Of a stretch of 57,565 nucleotides of DNA, positions 6,285 through 11,092 are shown one piece after another. The stretch is from an uncultured Clostridia bacterium (lineage in GTDB: Bacteria > Acidobacteriota > Aminicenantia > JAMOAD01). Every line of letters starts with the position of its first letter. Positions within the stretch are counted from its first letter, which is position 1. Below the pieces are notes generated by a model. The model saw only the letters and a program-made list of their open reading frames with translations. It did not search any database and was not told where the DNA came from. Location: the NCBI GenBank assembly GCA_964634755.1, contig CAZWJH010000005.1, positions 1 to 57,565 on the forward strand, given 5' to 3'. The translations under genes were made by a program, and so were the position numbers.

Positions 6285-6292
6285 TCTTCATA

Positions 6293-6477
6293 AAGCTGAA
6301 CAGCAGACCAGCCGTTCCAGCTGAGCAGCGAAATTGTTCTGCTCTGTTGTCCCAAAAAGGTTTACAGGATTGTATGCTGTATGCAATAGAAAGAAAAGGA
6401 ATGCAAAGAAATATCAAGAAACAGATAACTAATATTTTGCTGGAACAGCTGAGAGCTGGTCGGCTTTGTGAAAGCTT
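6293..6477. repeat. Degenerate octamer (N-GARCAGC-like) repeat with imperfect inverted arms
   Basis: tgaacagc agaccagc cgttccagc tgagcagc at 6297-6329; mirror gctggaac..gctggtc at 6439-6461. Confidence 0.6.
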
Positions 6478-6524
6478 AAAAAAATGTTTTACACTTTTAA
6501 TTATTATGGTAAGATATCTAAATA

Positions 6525-9500
6525 ATGAAAAGTTTTAAGTCCATAATTAAAAGCTCTCTTTTTATTTCAGGAGGTACTCTTTTAACAAGACTACTTGGTT
6601 TTGTAAGGGAAATTCTTGCTGCAACTTACTTTGGTAGTGGAAAGCTCTATGATGCTTTTATAATTGCCTTCTCGGTCCCAAACCTTTTCAGAAGAGTTTT
6701 GGGAGAGGAGATGTTTGAAAGAGCTTTTCTTCCTCCTTTTAAAAGGCTTCTCAGCGAAAGCAAAGAAGTGAGAGCTAAAAGATTTTTAATCAAAGCATTT
6801 TTAATTACACTTTTAATCTCTTTAATACTTTTGGCCATACTTTATATTTTTATGCCTCCTCTTATTAAGCTCCTTGCTCCGGGGATGGATCATCAGACTT
6901 TTCTTCTTACTGTTTCCCTTGCTAAAATAATAGCTCCTTTTTTGGTGTTAATTGCAGTGTCCACATTTTTAGGCGCTATCCTTCTTTTTAGCGGAAAAAG
7001 TATAATTTACAGTACTGCTCCCGGTATTATGAATCTTTTAGTTATAATTTTTATGATAATTTTTCATGGTAAAATTGGAATAAAAACGATGGTTTATGCC
7101 TATTTGTTAGGCGCTCTGGGATTTATTATTTATCAAATACCAGCTCTTTTTAAGATAAAAAAAGAAATTGACAAAAAAATAGAAAGAAAAGAGAGTGTAA
7201 GAGTAGGAAAATCCTTTGTTGAAGCTGGAAAGGTGCTTTTATCCTCTATTATTACTAAGAGTGTACAAGTGGTTGATAGGGTAGTGGCATCTCTTATAGG
7301 CGCAGGAGCAATATCATCACTCTGGTATAGTTTCAGAATAATAAATCTTCCGTTTTCAATTTTATCCCTTTCACTTTCACGAAGCATTGCTCCAGAGCTT
7401 TCCAAGATGAGAGGGAAAAAGGATAAGAAAGGATTTAAAGATATAATTGGTTTTGGTATTGATTTGAATCTTATAATTTTGTTCCCTGTAACCCTTTTTA
7501 TTCTCTTTTTTTCAAAAGAAATAGTAGCTCTTTTTTACAAAAGAGGAATGTTTGGGAATACTGCTGTCTCGGAAACCTCTCTTGCTCTTTTTTATTATTC
7601 CTTATCACTTTTGCCAAGCGGATTTATAGCTCTTTTCACAAGAGTTTACTCTTCTCTTGAGGATAACAAACTTCCTCTTTATGCATCCTTTTGGGCTGGT
7701 GGAATTAATATTTTCCTTGATTTTATCCTTTACAGAACTCCTTTAAAACAGGGTGGGATTGCTCTTGCGACTGCAATCGCATTGATAGTTCAGTCTTTAA
7801 TACTATTTTTTTATCTTTCAAAGTATGGGATAAAAATTGAATACAGAAGAGTTTTAAGTACTATTGGGAAACTTATCTTTGCTTCTTTTTTCTATATTCC
7901 TTCCTTGTGGATTTTTAAACTCTTCACTTCTAAGGTAAAAAGCCTTTGGAGTATGCTCTTTTTGCTTGGATTAGCCTTTTTAATATCTTTCTCTATTTAC
8001 GGAATAATTGTTTACGGATTCTGGCGGAAAAGGTATTCGAAGAAAAAAAAGGTTATTCTTACAGGTGGTGGAACGGGTGGTCATGTTTACCCTTCACTTT
8101 CAATATATGAAATCTTAAAAAAGAGAGATTTTGTAGGAGATGTTTTATATCTTGGGATAAGGGGAAGAGCTGAGGAAGTAATAGTCCCTCGAAAGGGTAT
8201 AAGGCTTGAGTTTATAACTTCTTCTCCTTTTTCAGGAAATAAGTTTAAAGTATTGCTTAAGCTTTTTAAAGGGACTCTTGAGGCGATAATTAAAATCATC
8301 AAATTCAAACCGCACATTGTTGTTGCAACTGGAGGATATGTTTCAGCCCCTGTGGTTTTTGGTGCATTTTTGTTAAAGCCATTTTTTAAAATAAAAATAA
8401 TAATTGAAGAGCAAAACTTTGTTCCCGGACTTTTAAATAAACTTACATCTTTAATGGCTAATGTTGTTTTTGTTAATTATCGTGAAACATCTTATTTTAT
8501 CTGGAGTAACCGCTGTGTTCTCGCAGGTTATCCTTTGAGGGATGATTATTACAAAGATTATAATAAATTTGTAATAAGGAGAAAGTTAGGCATCCCTGAG
8601 AATAAATTCTTTATTTTAATTACGGGAGGCTCCCTCGGGGCAAGAAGCATAAACAGAGTTACAGCTTTTTCAATGAAAAAACTTATGGAAAATGAAAATT
8701 ATCACATAGTTCATTCATTGGGTCTTGCCTCTTATGATTATTATGATTCTTATGAGGATACAAAAGAGATTCTAAAAAAGGAGCTTGGTGGACTTTTTGA
8801 TGAAAAAAAATTTGAAGTGAAAGAGGAAAATGGTTTTTATTATAAGGGGGAGAGATTTATTCACAATATTGTTGATTATCAAAAAGCTGCTGATTTAATA
8901 ATAAGCAGAGCAGGAGCAGGGGCTATTTCGGAGATTTCCGCTCTTGGGAAAGCTTCCGTTCTTATTCCGAAAAGAGGGCTTCCGGGAGATCATCAGGAGT
9001 TGAATGCAATAAATTTGGTGGAAAAAGAAGCAGCCGAGATAATATTTGAAAAAATTGATTTTAAGAGTGAAATTGATTACATAGATTGTGGTGAGTTTGT
9101 AAAGACCATAAGCTCTCTTGAAAAGAGCAAAGAAAAATTATCACTTCTTGAAAAAAATATAAAACAGTTTTCAATAAAAGAATCAGACAAGATTATTGCT
9201 GATACTGTTGAAGCTGTTTTTGAAGAAAAAGAGATAAATTATATTTTTGAGATTGTTGAACCAAAGTTTGTAAAATTTACAAGGCAATTTGACAGCCTTA
9301 TTCTGTATCTTGACAAAAATATCAAGGAAAAAGGCTTGAATAATCTTTATGCTAAGCTCTACAATAATAAAATAGAAGAGTACATGAGATCAGAAAATTA
9401 TCTTATTGTGAACAGAGCGGTAAAATTAATAGGAAGTTTAAGAAGAGAGGATCTTTACCCTTGGCTCTATGAAAATTTTACCAATTTTAAGGGGTTTTTA

Positions 9501-9989
9501 AAAAGAAATACTTTAATAGGGCTCAAAAAAGCTGATAAGTATTTTTCTTTTTTTAAGGAATTGATATTAAAAGGTATTGATGATTCTTATTATGAAGTTA
9601 GAAGGGGAGCAATTTCTCTTTATAGAAAATTTTATGATGATATGAGTAATGAGGATGAAATAAAAGAAAAAATTCTTGAAAGATTAATGAAAAAATTTGA
9701 AAGCTTTGAAGTGAAAGCGGAGGCTATAAAAGCATCTGCTCTTTTCCTGAATGAAGATGAATTTTTTGCACTTAACAAGTATAATCTTACTTCAAGGAAT
9801 ATAAGAATCAGGGAAGCTCTTTTGGAAAGTATTGAATGCGGGCTTAATATCGGAAAATTCAAAGATAAAAATAAGGTTAAGAACTTTTTAAGACAGATGC
9901 TTATTACCACATCGGAGTTTAAACCTGAATTCAGGGTTAGGGAAAAATATATGAGAGTCGTTAAAAAATTGGAAGGGATAAAGGAATGA
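6525..9989 (+). CDS. murJ-murG: Fusion protein: lipid II flippase MurJ + MurG glycosyltransferase + C-terminal HEAT-repeat domain
   Basis: aa ~1-500 MurJ (TRLLGFVRE, YDAF, PNLFRR). aa ~510-900 MurG (GGGTGGH, GGYVSAP, EQN..PG, GGSLGA, SRAGA, DHQELNA). Helical repeats follow (YYEVRRGAISL, FEVKAEAIKA, NIRIREALLES). One continuous ORF. Confidence 0.9.
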   Translation: MKSFKSIIKSSLFISGGTLLTRLLGFVREILAATYFGSGKLYDAFIIAFSVPNLFRRVLGEEMFERAFLPPFKRLLSESKEVRAKRFLIKAFLITLLISLILLAILYIFMPPLIKLLAPGMDHQTFLLTVSLAKIIAPFLVLIAVSTFLGAILLFSGKSIIYSTAPGIMNLLVIIFMIIFHGKIGIKTMVYAYLLGALGFIIYQIPALFKIKKEIDKKIERKESVRVGKSFVEAGKVLLSSIITKSVQVVDRVVASLIGAGAISSLWYSFRIINLPFSILSLSLSRSIAPELSKMRGKKDKKGFKDIIGFGIDLNLIILFPVTLFILFFSKEIVALFYKRGMFGNTAVSETSLALFYYSLSLLPSGFIALFTRVYSSLEDNKLPLYASFWAGGINIFLDFILYRTPLKQGGIALATAIALIVQSLILFFYLSKYGIKIEYRRVLSTIGKLIFASFFYIPSLWIFKLFTSKVKSLWSMLFLLGLAFLISFSIYGIIVYGFWRKRYSKKKKVILTGGGTGGHVYPSLSIYEILKKRDFVGDVLYLGIRGRAEEVIVPRKGIRLEFITSSPFSGNKFKVLLKLFKGTLEAIIKIIKFKPHIVVATGGYVSAPVVFGAFLLKPFFKIKIIIEEQNFVPGLLNKLTSLMANVVFVNYRETSYFIWSNRCVLAGYPLRDDYYKDYNKFVIRRKLGIPENKFFILITGGSLGARSINRVTAFSMKKLMENENYHIVHSLGLASYDYYDSYEDTKEILKKELGGLFDEKKFEVKEENGFYYKGERFIHNIVDYQKAADLIISRAGAGAISEISALGKASVLIPKRGLPGDHQELNAINLVEKEAAEIIFEKIDFKSEIDYIDCGEFVKTISSLEKSKEKLSLLEKNIKQFSIKESDKIIADTVEAVFEEKEINYIFEIVEPKFVKFTRQFDSLILYLDKNIKEKGLNNLYAKLYNNKIEEYMRSENYLIVNRAVKLIGSLRREDLYPWLYENFTNFKGFLKRNTLIGLKKADKYFSFFKELILKGIDDSYYEVRRGAISLYRKFYDDMSNEDEIKEKILERLMKKFESFEVKAEAIKASALFLNEDEFFALNKYNLTSRNIRIREALLESIECGLNIGKFKDKNKVKNFLRQMLITTSEFKPEFRVREKYMRVVKKLEGIKE

Positions 9990-11092
9990 TAGAATTATTA
10001 ATTGCTCTTTTAAAAATTGCCGGAATAAATTACGGCTTTTTCAGATTAATGAACTATATAACATTCAGAGCTATAATGGCAATGGGAACAGCATTGCTCT
10101 TCAGCTTGATTTTTGGGTTTAAGTTTATTCTTTTTCTTTACAAAAAGAAGTTCAGAGACACATCAGGAGAAACTCTTTCCATAAACGCTTATTCCAAAAG
10201 GGGAACGCCAACCGCTGGAGGGACTTTAATTATTTCTTCAACTCTGTTATCTTTGGTTTTGTGGGGGGATTTTACAAATTCGTTTTTTCTTGTGCTTATA
10301 TCAGCTTTCCTTTATTTCGGATTTGTAGGGTTTTTAGATGATTTCCAGAAATCAAGATTCAAATCATCCCTTTCGGGTTTAAGCCAGCTTGGGAAAACTA
10401 TTCTTATGCTTGCATACATAGTACCCTTTTCCTTTTATTATATCTCACCTCTTTGTCCTATCTCACAAAAATTAAAAACACTTATTTATATCCCCTTTTA
10501 TAAAAATCCTGTGCTTGATTTGGGTGAAATCGGATTTGTACTTTTTATAATATTTGTAATGTTTTCCGTTATAAATTCTGTTAATATGACGGATGGTATG
10601 GATGGTCTTTTGAGTGGGGTTTCTGTTCTCACAATAGGAGTTTACATAGTTTTCGCATATATTATAGGTAATTCCCTTGCATCTTCCCACTATCTTTTTC
10701 CATATATAATGGGTGTGGAGGAGGTGACTGTATTTGGTGCGGCTTTGATAGGAGCTATTTTGGGTTTTCTCTGGTACAATAGCTATCCTGCTGAAATTTT
10801 TATGGGAGATACGGGTTCACTTGCAATTGGTAGTGTGATTGCCCTTATGCTATTTTTCACAAAACAGGAAATGCTTTTTATCATAAGCGGAGGGGTTTTT
10901 ATAGTTGAGATTTTTACATCTCTTTTACAGGAAAAGATAGGAGACAGGTTGGGCAGACGAATGATTTACAGAGCTCCGATTCATCATACCTTAACCCATG
11001 AAGGGATAGCCGAGCCAAAAGCTGTGATAAGAATCTGGATAGTTGCCATAATATTAGCAATAATTTCACTTTTGTCTTTGAAAGTCAGATGA
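9986..11092 (+). CDS. mraY: Phospho-N-acetylmuramoyl-pentapeptide transferase homolog (divergent)
   Basis: YITFRA, KRGTPTAGG, GFLDD, NSVNMTDGMDGL, FMGDTGS, APIHHT. ATGA overlap with the upstream fusion. Confidence 0.88.
   Translation: MIELLIALLKIAGINYGFFRLMNYITFRAIMAMGTALLFSLIFGFKFILFLYKKKFRDTSGETLSINAYSKRGTPTAGGTLIISSTLLSLVLWGDFTNSFFLVLISAFLYFGFVGFLDDFQKSRFKSSLSGLSQLGKTILMLAYIVPFSFYYISPLCPISQKLKTLIYIPFYKNPVLDLGEIGFVLFIIFVMFSVINSVNMTDGMDGLLSGVSVLTIGVYIVFAYIIGNSLASSHYLFPYIMGVEEVTVFGAALIGAILGFLWYNSYPAEIFMGDTGSLAIGSVIALMLFFTKQEMLFIISGGVFIVEIFTSLLQEKIGDRLGRRMIYRAPIHHTLTHEGIAEPKAVIRIWIVAIILAIISLLSLKVR

What the first reader, a model, noticed from the sequence alone, without database searches (positions are those of the whole stretch)
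9340..9989. HEAT-repeat tail and internal insertion on the MurG module
Seen: after the MurG C-terminal helix there are ~250 extra residues with HEAT-like units (SENYLIVNRAVKLIG, DSYYEVRRGAISL, ESFEVKAEAIKA, SRNIRIREALLES). MurG also carries an acidic/aromatic insertion (YDYYDSYEDTKEILKKELGGLFDEKKF) before the UDP-sugar-binding motif. Established: canonical MurG is ~360 aa with no such tail. Inference: a cytoplasmic scaffold recruiting partner enzymes, or a regulatory input.
Basis: partly seen in the sequence, partly recalled or inferred. Interest (0 to 1): 0.6.

Follow-up and report, generated by a model that had tools for sequence, protein, structure and literature searches.

The report
HEAT adaptor module linking MurG to MraY
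The extra ~250 residues after MurG are a real, conserved HEAT-repeat domain that, in about a hundred related loci, is always encoded directly in front of an unusual MraY, so it most likely holds the membrane enzymes that make the cell-wall precursor lipid II together.

Summary
Both observations are confirmed. ORF 6525-9989 (1154 aa) is MurJ + MurG + a C-terminal tail of about 250 aa. The tail folds confidently as a five-repeat HEAT/ARM-type solenoid, and its homologues pass Pfam HEAT thresholds. MurG carries a 21-residue, confidently folded insertion compared with plain MurGs of the same class.

The main result goes beyond the finding. The tail is an autonomous module. In 92 of 92 distinct loci with enough downstream sequence it lies directly upstream of mraY, usually overlapping it. 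This holds whether it is fused to MurJ-MurG (here), MurG, MurG-MurJ, or stands alone.

These MraYs form one divergent clade (SH-aLRT 100). They lack the canonical HHH motif (0/59, against 38/38 plain acidobacterial MraYs). The linked MurGs share the insertion motif Y-x-[AS]-[YFW]-x-D-T.

In this genome the fusion is the only MurG and the only MurJ. The dcw cluster lacks exactly mraY and murG.

Most likely the HEAT domain is a cytoplasmic adaptor tying MraY to MurG and MurJ. This is an inference. One complex prediction gave no verdict.

I found no paper describing it. This scan had already met the related MurG-MurJ-HEAT family on other DNA.

The parts
6525..8021 (+). MurJ (lipid II flippase) module, aa 1-499
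   Evidence: Pfam MurJ 5.8e-77. TIGR01695 scores 302 bits, above the 235.55 cut-off. It is the only MurJ match in the 100%-complete genome.
8022..8051 (+). Short basic linker WRKRYSKKKK joining the last MurJ helix to the first MurG strand
   Evidence: Sequence.
8040..9206 (+). MurG (GT28) module, aa 506-894
   Evidence: GT28_N and GT28_C are above the Pfam cut-offs. TIGR01133 matches full length but scores 216.9, below the 250.25 cut-off. It is the only GT28_N match in the genome.
8733..8849 (+). MurG insertion, aa 737-775: an aromatic/acidic loop with the cassette-wide motif YDSYEDT (aa 740-746), a lengthened helix, and a beta-hairpin (FEV...FYYKG)
   Evidence: Anchor spacing is 93 against 72-73 in plain class-mates. 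The motif Y-x-[AS]-[YFW]-x-D-T is present in all HEAT-cassette MurGs listed and absent from the 8 plain ones. Block pLDDT in this stretch is 90-97, with helix 238-253 and strands 260-262 and 268-272 in model numbering.
9207..9344 (+). Linker with a conserved helix (EPxFVxFxRxFDSLIxYLD, aa 912-930) between MurG and the repeats
   Evidence: Alignments A2 and A6. Helices 412-415 and 418-432 in the MurG+tail model, block pLDDT 73-88.
9345..9899 (+). HEAT/ARM-type solenoid, aa 941-1125: a capping helix plus five helix pairs
   Evidence: AF2 pLDDT is 92-99 over this stretch. VIA-align Z is 14-17 to importin-type, alphaRep, designed ARM and YibA structures. Homologues pass HEAT_2 and HEAT gathering scores. 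Invariant columns are N58, K62, L63, R89, N90, Y117, E119 and R191.
9900..9944 (+). Conserved C-terminal linear motif LITTSEFKPEFRVRE (aa 1126-1140)
   Evidence: P229 and F231 are nearly invariant in 59 tails and T-T-S-x-F-x-P-x-F is conserved. It is modelled as a non-helical stretch with lower confidence, block pLDDT 64-68.
9945..9989 (+). Terminal helix and stop codon. GGAAGGG and AAGGA Shine-Dalgarno-like runs and an ATGA stop/start overlap with mraY lie inside it.
   Evidence: Sequence.
9986..11092 (+). mraY of the divergent, HEAT-linked clade (loop E reads APIHHTLTHEGI)
   Evidence: TIGR00445 scores 254 bits, above the 192 cut-off. It is the only MraY-type gene of three GT4 genes in the genome. 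HHT replaces HHH. The clade split has SH-aLRT 100.

Best explanation
The tail is a five-repeat HEAT/ARM-type alpha-solenoid followed by a conserved linear motif. It is the signature component of a variant 'lipid II membrane-step cassette'. The cassette consists of a HEAT module, then a divergent MraY, and usually a variant MurG and MurJ.

In this genome the cassette has replaced the canonical mraY and murG of the dcw cluster. The proposed mechanism is an inference. [quoted passage not shown] MraY's cytoplasmic loops A and E carry the clade-specific changes. The domain thereby holds MraY against MurG, and here also against the covalently attached MurJ. Lipid I would then be made, glycosylated to lipid II and flipped within one assembly.

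The MurG insertion is the cassette-specific MurG surface. It is most likely where the HEAT solenoid packs, in cis here and in trans where the module is fused to MurJ or is free.

Shown: the fold class, the conservation, the modularity, the invariant gene adjacency, and the co-inherited changes in MraY and MurG. Inferred: physical binding and substrate hand-over.
For: Fold.
- The AF2 tail model has pLDDT 88.5 and pTM 0.85.
- Its top structural matches are all HEAT/ARM solenoids, Z 14-17.
- Homologues pass Pfam HEAT_2 and HEAT.
- The nearest Atlas clusters are HEAT_2.

Modularity. Homologous tails occur in four settings:
- on MurJ-MurG;
- on MurG alone;
- on MurG-MurJ;
- as free ORFs of about 230-300 aa.

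Invariant partner.
- In 92 of 92 distinct loci with at least 500 nt downstream, mraY is the next gene on the same strand.
- Just over half of these (51 of 92) overlap, and the median projected gap is about -4 nt.
- No query used any MraY sequence.
- Free HEAT+mraY pairs sit among unrelated genes.

Co-inherited MraY type.
- 0 of 59 HEAT-linked MraYs keep HHH, against 38 of 38 plain acidobacterial MraYs.
- One branch separates the two sets, SH-aLRT 100.
- 5 of 9 group-discriminating columns lie in cytoplasmic loops A and E.
- All 121 sampled genomes have MraY at one locus. It scores 38-43% identity in HEAT genomes and 47-65% in nearly all others.

Co-inherited MurG type.
- The insertion motif is present in every cassette MurG listed, including unfused ones, and absent from the 8 plain class-mates.

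Replacement of the canonical genes.
- This genome has a single MurG and a single MurJ.
- Its dcw cluster runs murE-murF-murD-ftsW-murC, with mraY and murG cleanly missing.
- Tail-less class-mates keep mraY-(murD, ftsW)-murG.

Domain packing.
- The MurG+tail model has pTM 0.85 over 650 aa. This is consistent with a fixed MurG-HEAT arrangement.

Translational coupling.
- There is an SD-like run and an ATGA stop/start overlap at the junction.
Against: - No direct evidence of binding exists.
- Gene adjacency and co-inheritance could reflect one ancestral cassette spreading as a unit, without HEAT-MraY contact. Relatives are not independent samples.
- The tools gave no coordinates or inter-domain error maps. 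Neither the HEAT-insertion contact nor the position of the conserved residues on the surface could be read.
- Whether organisms with free HEAT+mraY pairs have the variant MurG is unknown, because their contigs are not held.
- The tail's own Pfam score is below threshold.
Confidence: 0.5

Rival explanations
1. The HEAT tail is a docking platform for soluble partners, such as the Mur ligases (for example MurF, which makes the MraY substrate) or cytoskeletal/divisome proteins (MreB, FtsA). This extends the known scaffold role of MurG and does not involve binding MraY.
For: HEAT/ARM solenoids are generic protein binders. MurG is reported to scaffold Mur ligases in Bordetella and Thermotoga (PMC6420597; cited in PMC10214165). 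Moving mraY and murG out of the dcw cluster might create a need for a recruiting device.
Against: No mur ligase or fts gene travels with the module. The only invariant neighbour is mraY. Free HEAT+mraY pairs lie among unrelated genes. The clade-specific changes are in MraY and MurG. The ligases were not examined.
Confidence: 0.15
2. The tail is a regulatory domain. It gates MraY or MurG activity in response to a signal such as precursor level, phosphorylation or membrane state. It is not a passive tether.
For: Notes of this scan describe an FHA-like domain in the related MurG-MurJ-HEAT proteins (not tested here). From memory, mycobacterial MurJ/MviN carries a cytoplasmic pseudokinase domain used for regulation. 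The conserved C-terminal motif is modelled as a low-confidence loop, as linear regulatory or docking motifs often are.
Against: The window's protein has no FHA or kinase-type domain. No ligand-binding or modification site was identified. Regulation and tethering are not mutually exclusive.
Confidence: 0.15
3. The HEAT module is a functional subunit of the variant MraY. It completes or alters the nucleotide-peptide substrate site, compensating for the lost third His and the changed PxHHHxExxGW signature. The cassette might then use a modified substrate.
For: The loop E signature is systematically changed only in HEAT-linked MraYs. A review states that this signature was proposed to set specificity for UDP-MurNAc-pentapeptide (PMC5039524). 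The pairing is strict, 92 of 92.
Against: The catalytic Asp residues and the first His are invariant. MraY passes the equivalog model. The genome keeps ordinary murC-F and ftsW, which argues for ordinary lipid II. There is no structural evidence.
Confidence: 0.12
4. The tail is a structurally stabilising appendage with no specific partner. It is retained by history.
For: The MurG+tail model suggests a compact unit.
Against: The same module persists when it is fused to MurJ or is free, with invariant surface-type residues across 59 diverse sequences at about 20-30% identity. That is hard to explain without a conserved function.
Confidence: 0.05

Closest known systems
Natural Mur chimeras (MurE-MurF, MurC-Ddl, MurC-MurB, MurG-MurC, MurD-FtsW, MraY-MurG), surveyed in PMC10214165
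   Same: Peptidoglycan-precursor enzymes are joined in one polypeptide, and this is taken as evidence that pathway enzymes work as complexes.
   Different: The survey, as read, lists no MurJ-MurG fusion and no HEAT module. Here a non-enzymatic adaptor domain is the constant element, and the enzymes around it are shuffled.
MurG as an oligomeric scaffold for Mur ligases (Bordetella pertussis, PMC6420597; Thermotoga maritima)
   Same: MurG serves as an organising platform on the cytoplasmic membrane face.
   Different: Those MurGs are canonical proteins of about 360 aa that use their own surface. Here a dedicated 250-aa solenoid and a MurG insertion are added, and the implied partner is MraY.
Bacterial HEAT-repeat proteins of Pfam HEAT_2/HEAT (for example E. 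coli YibA, PDB 1OYZ) and eukaryotic importin-beta/PP2A-A type solenoids
   Same: The same fold class: tandem antiparallel helix pairs, the D-x-x-x-E-V-R-x-x-A signature, and Z 13.9-16.9.
   Different: Sequence identity is about 10-16%. This family has its own signature (W-x-[IV]-[RK]-N, F-x-R-R-N, a C-terminal T-T-S-x-F-x-P-x-F motif) and a fixed genomic partner.
Mycobacterial MurJ (MviN) with a C-terminal cytoplasmic pseudokinase domain that recruits FhaA (from memory, not checked here)
   Same: A lipid II pathway membrane protein carries a C-terminal cytoplasmic protein-interaction domain.
   Different: A different fold (kinase-like against HEAT), a different host protein and a phospho-dependent mechanism. 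There is no link to MraY.
Canonical MraY (A. aeolicus 4J72, E. coli 8G01)
   Same: The neighbouring gene aligns full length (E 8e-64 to 8e-60) and keeps the catalytic Asp residues and the first His.
   Different: The conserved PxHHHxExxGW loop E signature reads PxHH[TSA]x[QT]xxG[ILV], and the loop A His is lost, in all HEAT-linked members.

Membership tests
HEAT repeat (Pfam HEAT_2 PF13646 / HEAT PF02985, ARM-like clan) | Profile match above the curated gathering score | tested here: inconclusive
   The window's tail alone scores 18.6 bits (E 0.0024) against a cut-off of 27.7. Homologues of the tail found by phmmer (E 1e-7 to 1e-11) score 55-73 bits for HEAT_2 and 38-48 for HEAT. They include a GT28_C+HEAT_2 protein.
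HEAT repeat (Pfam HEAT_2 PF13646 / HEAT PF02985, ARM-like clan) | Tandem antiparallel helix pairs stacked into an alpha-solenoid | tested here: met
   The AF2 model has 14 helices, pLDDT 88.5 and pTM 0.85. The best 50 VIA-align matches are HEAT/ARM solenoids, Z 12.5-16.9, covering residues 1-249. Foldseek's best hit is E 2.6e-3 to designed armadillo proteins. Caveat: helical repeats reach Z of about 13-14 easily.
HEAT repeat (Pfam HEAT_2 PF13646 / HEAT PF02985, ARM-like clan) | Repeat signature with conserved Asp and Arg (D-x-x-x-x-V-R-x-x-A) in the second helix | tested here: met
   DSYYEVRRGA lies at aa 1020-1029. D115 is nearly invariant, Y117 and E119 are invariant, and R121 is nearly invariant in 59 tails. 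Weaker copies are NRAVKLIG, FEVKAEAI and IRIREALL.
MurG (GT28, TIGR01133) | GT28 N- and C-terminal Rossmann domains above the Pfam cut-offs | tested here: met
   PF03033 scores 93.6 bits and PF04101 scores 82.1 bits.
MurG (GT28, TIGR01133) | Equivalog-level score for MurG | tested here: not met
   TIGR01133 scores 216.9 bits against a cut-off of 250.25, although the match is full length, 4-352 of 353. The shortfall fits the insertion and the divergence. It is the only GT28_N gene in a 100%-complete genome.
MurG (GT28, TIGR01133) | G-rich loop GGTGGH, and the conserved C-domain motifs around GGSxGA and xRxGA...SE | tested here: met
   TGGGTGGHVYP, GGSLGAR (aa 701-707) and SRAGAGAISE (aa 794-803) are present. 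G10-H16, G197, S199 and G201 are invariant in A6.
MraY (TIGR00445), the neighbouring gene | Equivalog-level score and catalytic Asp/His residues | tested here: met
   254.2 bits against a cut-off of 192.05. D118, D119, D203, D206, D275 and H333 are invariant in 59 HEAT-linked MraYs.
MraY (TIGR00445), the neighbouring gene | PxHHHxExxG loop E signature (PMC5039524) | tested here: not met
   The window reads APIHHTLTHEG. 0 of 59 HEAT-linked MraYs have HHH and 38 of 38 plain acidobacterial MraYs do.
HEAT-before-mraY cassette (unnamed family; defined operationally here and in earlier notes of this scan) | A family-specific HEAT module encoded immediately upstream of mraY on the same strand | tested here: met
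   In the window the stop and start overlap as ATGA. The arrangement holds in 92 of 92 distinct related loci.

The most novel reading that the evidence does not exclude
The HEAT module is an obligate, so far undescribed subunit of a second type of MraY (HHx loop E). Together with a variant MurG and MurJ it forms a physically coupled MraY-MurG-MurJ 'lipid II synthasome'. This assembly has replaced the canonical dcw-encoded enzymes in several acidobacterial classes and in many uncultured lineages. The HEAT subunit may also take part in substrate recognition or gating at the MraY active site.
Probability: 0.3. Interest if true: 0.8.

Novelty: new variant of a known kind. Interest (0 to 1): 0.6.

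Why it matters
It has long been debated whether MraY, MurG and the flippase MurJ act as one complex that hands lipid I and lipid II from enzyme to enzyme. In model bacteria this is hard to test, because the proteins are separate and their contacts are weak.

Here nature supplies a covalent MurJ-MurG protein with a dedicated adaptor domain that is strictly paired with its own MraY type. That is a ready-made, thermodynamically favoured version of the proposed complex, suited to biochemistry and cryo-EM.

The work also defines a second, widespread MraY subtype that lacks the 'universally conserved' HHH motif. This is relevant to how the motif is interpreted and to MraY-directed inhibitor design, and it gives a clear evolutionary marker.

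For annotation, it explains why these genomes appear to lack mraY and murG in the dcw cluster. It also explains why the long 'MurG' proteins score below the equivalog cut-off.

Tried and rejected
Complex prediction.
- MraY (alignment A5) with the HEAT tail (alignment A4) scored 0.06 and 0.23 against a mark of 0.32. The tool's verdict is 'no answer', so I count it neither for nor against binding.

Tools that did not run.
I obtained the context of the stand-alone HEAT proteins from a metagenome scan instead.
I could not check whether organisms with free HEAT+mraY pairs carry the variant MurG or a second MraY.
- The search for related loci with the broad alignment A1 had no sufficiently conserved stretch. 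I repeated it with A2.

Weak or limited results.
- Foldseek against the PDB gave no match at E <= 1e-3. The best was 2.6e-3, to designed armadillo proteins. VIA-align supplied the structural matches used here.
- The structure tools return no coordinates or error maps. The HEAT-MurG interface, a possible role of the insertion as docking site, and surface mapping of invariant residues could not be examined. pTM 0.85 for the 650-aa model is only an indirect hint.

Ideas rejected.
- The fusion is an accessory paralogue. It is the only MurG and the only MurJ in the genome.
- The tail is low-complexity K/E-rich read-through in an AT-rich genome. It is conserved down to about 20% identity across 103 representative clusters.

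Literature.
- Searches for MraY with 'HEAT repeat', for dcw with Acidobacteria, and for MurJ/MurG gene fusions found no description.
Full report
WHAT IS THERE

The window carries one 1154-aa ORF at 6525-9989 on the + strand. Pfam and NCBIfam divide it as follows:
- MurJ at aa 33-469. TIGR01695 scores 302 bits, above its cut-off.
- A ten-residue basic linker.
- A full-length MurG at aa 506-894. GT28_N and GT28_C are above their cut-offs. TIGR01133 matches end to end but scores 216.9, below 250.25.
- About 260 further residues.

mraY follows at 9986-11092. Its start overlaps the stop as ATGA, and GGAAGGG and AAGGA runs lie just upstream. It passes the MraY equivalog model with 254 bits. The closest genome records are Candidatus Aminicenantes MAGs in the Acidobacteriota.

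CHECK OF THE OBSERVATION

They fall on the most conserved columns of the family.

On its own the tail only grazes Pfam HEAT_2, with 18.6 bits against a cut-off of 27.7. Three other lines establish the fold class:
- Proteins found with the tail by phmmer include members scoring 55-73 bits for HEAT_2 and 38-48 bits for HEAT. One has GT28_C followed by HEAT_2.
- An AlphaFold2 model built on 24 sequences has pLDDT 88.5 and pTM 0.85. It shows 14 helices: a linker helix, a cap, five helix pairs, and a terminal helix.
- Every one of the 50 best VIA-align matches in the PDB representatives is a HEAT/ARM solenoid. Examples are RanBP5 at Z 16.9, designed armadillo and alphaRep proteins at about Z 15, and E. 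coli YibA at Z 13.9. The ESM Atlas neighbours are HEAT_2 clusters.

Foldseek's best E-value was only 2.6e-3. Helical repeats reach Z of about 13-14 easily. The structural claim is therefore 'HEAT/ARM-type solenoid', not kinship with any particular solved protein.

The MurG insertion is also real. Against E. coli MurG, 51 residues face 28. The spacing between the GGSxGA and xRxGA anchors is 93 here. It is 72-73 in eight plain MurGs of the same class.

In a 650-aa MurG+tail model (pLDDT 91.8) the insertion is confidently folded, with block pLDDT 90-97. It forms a loop, a lengthened helix and a beta-hairpin.

THE TAIL IS A MOBILE MODULE WHOSE CONSTANT NEIGHBOUR IS mraY

A word-based search and an exhaustive phmmer search found 27 and 103 relatives respectively. 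Domain mapping shows four architectures:
- MurJ-MurG-HEAT, about 1155-1206 aa. This is the window's form.
- MurG-HEAT, about 650-780 aa.
- MurG-MurJ-HEAT, about 1250-1333 aa.
- Free HEAT proteins of about 230-300 aa. Two loci read murG | HEAT | mraY as separate ORFs.

I fetched loci three ways: with a tail motif from reference genomes, with the tail profile from Acidobacteriota genomes, and with a repeat-1 motif from metagenomes. No query used any MraY sequence.

In 92 of 92 distinct loci with at least 500 nt of downstream sequence, the next gene on the same strand is mraY. Just over half of these (51 of 92) overlap, and the median projected gap is about -4 nt. Free HEAT+mraY pairs sit among unrelated genes such as serA-like, trpC and PPDK, which is outside any dcw context.

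THE LINKED MraY AND MurG ARE THEIR OWN SUBTYPES

None of 59 HEAT-linked MraYs has the canonical HHH of loop E. They read HHT 30, HHS 8, HHA 8, HHG 4, HHN 4, and others 5. All 38 plain acidobacterial MraYs have PLHHHFE..GW.

A maximum-likelihood tree of the 97 MraYs separates the two sets by a single branch with SH-aLRT 100. This holds even though both sets contain members of the class Aminicenantia.

Nine alignment columns discriminate the groups. Five of them lie in cytoplasmic loops A and E: window positions 58, 68, 335, 337 and 341. A review states that the PxHHHxExxG signature is highly conserved and was proposed to contribute to specificity for UDP-MurNAc-pentapeptide (PMC5039524). The catalytic Asp residues and the first His remain invariant.

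All 121 sampled Acidobacteriota genomes have MraY at one locus (in three it matches in two pieces of one frame). Nearly all the others are 47-65% identical to a plain query. The ones in HEAT-bearing genomes are only 38-43% identical, including those in the query's own class.

Likewise, every cassette-linked MurG listed has an insertion carrying Y-x-[AS]-[YFW]-x-D-T right after the H-x-x-G strand. This includes the unfused ones and those of the MurG-MurJ-HEAT form. The eight plain class-mates lack it.
- The core insertion adds about 10 residues (spacing 83).
- The acidobacterial MurG-HEAT clade, including the window, adds a further beta-hairpin (spacing 93-98).

GENOMIC ROLE

The window's genome is 100% complete by marker genes and has one GT28 MurG and one MurJ. 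Both are in this ORF. Of three GT4-family genes, only the neighbour is MraY-like.

Its dcw cluster on contig C60 reads mraZ-rsmH-ftsI-murE-murF-murD-ftsW-murC-ftsQ-ftsA-ftsZ. The murF/murD and ftsW/murC frames abut, so exactly mraY and murG are missing. Tail-less class-mates keep the canonical mraY-(murD, ftsW)-murG order.

The cassette is therefore the housekeeping route.

Within the class Aminicenantia:
- family f1 (the window's) has MurJ-MurG-HEAT;
- families f2 and f6 have MurG-MurJ-HEAT;
- nine other families have plain MurG.

In the phylum sample, strong full-length matches occur in about 40 of 301 genomes. The other matches are generic HEAT proteins.

The HEAT-domain tree places the window inside a well-supported clade (SH-aLRT 100) of acidobacterial MurG-HEAT tails. 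Some of these have a separate murJ gene directly upstream (L016, L018). The window's order is therefore best explained by fusion of an adjacent murJ onto murG-HEAT. The MurG-MurJ-HEAT forms are a separate clade, SH-aLRT 98.

MECHANISM

Shown:
- a protein-binding type of fold;
- strong conservation of specific residues (N58, K62, L63, R89, N90, Y117, E119 and R191 are invariant; P229 and F231 in a C-terminal T-T-S-x-F-x-P-x-F motif are nearly so);
- modularity;
- strict adjacency to, and co-inheritance with, a distinct MraY and a distinct MurG.

Inferred: the solenoid is an adaptor on the cytoplasmic membrane face. It binds MraY, whose changed loops face the cytoplasm. It packs on MurG through the cassette-specific insertion. 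The result would couple lipid I synthesis, lipid II synthesis and, in the fused forms, flipping.

The pTM of 0.85 for the 650-aa MurG+tail model fits a fixed MurG-HEAT arrangement. I could not inspect the interface.

Stop/start overlap with mraY suits co-translational assembly. That is established knowledge for operon-encoded complexes and was not tested here.

The rivals are listed with odds in their own section: a platform for soluble Mur ligases or cytoskeleton, a regulatory gate, a contribution to the MraY substrate site, and an inert appendage. I put about 0.5 on the adaptor-to-MraY reading.

COMPARISON WITH WHAT IS KNOWN, AND NOVELTY

The survey of natural Mur chimeras lists MurE-MurF, MurC-Ddl, MurC-MurB, MurG-MurC, MurD-FtsW and MraY-MurG. 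It lists no MurJ-MurG fusion and no HEAT module (PMC10214165). Full-text searches for MraY with 'HEAT repeat', and for related terms, returned nothing relevant. Public records give these proteins only automatic MurG names.

The fold and the idea of a scaffold are known. Three things appear undescribed: the dedicated HEAT module strictly paired with an HHx-type MraY, the variant MurG, and their replacement of the dcw genes. I therefore rate the finding a new variant of a known kind.

Earlier notes of this scan had already met the related MurG-(FHA)-MurJ-HEAT family on other DNA. Two of them state that the HEAT module always precedes mraY. I reached that conclusion independently and re-tested it.

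This report adds:
- the MurJ-MurG-HEAT order and its likely origin;
- the HHH loss and the MraY clade split;
- the MurG insertion motif;
- the exact gaps in the dcw cluster.

CAVEATS

- Relatives are not independent, so the 92 of 92 and 0 of 59 counts describe a family, not 92 separate events.
- The trees used a quick search with a midpoint root.
- The phylum tallies include three genomes flagged unpublished (G181, G063, G086). No individual claim, locus or sequence in this report rests on them.

Noticed in passing
window 9986-11092: The neighbouring MraY reads APIHHTLTHEGI, not the canonical PxHHHxExxGW, and it lacks the loop A His. This is a clade-wide trait of all 59 HEAT-linked MraYs examined.
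   Followed up: yes
own genome contig C60 (locus L128:2253-15453, minus strand): The dcw cluster is mraZ-rsmH-ftsI-murE-murF-murD-ftsW-murC-ftsQ-ftsA-ftsZ, with mraY and murG cleanly absent from their usual slots.
   Followed up: yes
own genome contigs C130:3309-4424 (-) and C36:5753-6784 (+): There are two further GT4-family (PF00953) polyprenyl-phosphate sugar-phosphate transferases. They look WecA/WbpL-like, not MraY-like. Their substrates are unknown.
   Followed up: partly
window 6285-6480: The GC-rich CAGC/GCTG-type short repeats form imperfect inverted arms around an AT-rich core just upstream of the murJ-murG-HEAT start. They might be a regulatory or dispersed repeat element.
   Followed up: no
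L051:4530-5702 and L062:1844-2737 (metagenome loci): Some stand-alone HEAT proteins upstream of mraY may carry an extra N-terminal stretch of up to about 135-175 residues (counted in the stop-to-stop frames, so partly dependent on the start codon chosen) with no match to MurG or MurJ.
   Followed up: no
G052:C104:24254-25366, G069:C53:8319-9434, G084:C3:87515-88627 (family f24): The plain MraY of this acidobacterial family matches in two pieces within one open frame. This suggests an insertion of about 40 residues near position 145-160.
   Followed up: no
L086:1-2727 and L115:226-2098 (metagenome loci): murG, the HEAT gene and mraY are separate, abutting ORFs. Their MurG already carries the cassette-type insertion (spacing 83). 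This may be the unfused form of the cassette.
   Followed up: partly
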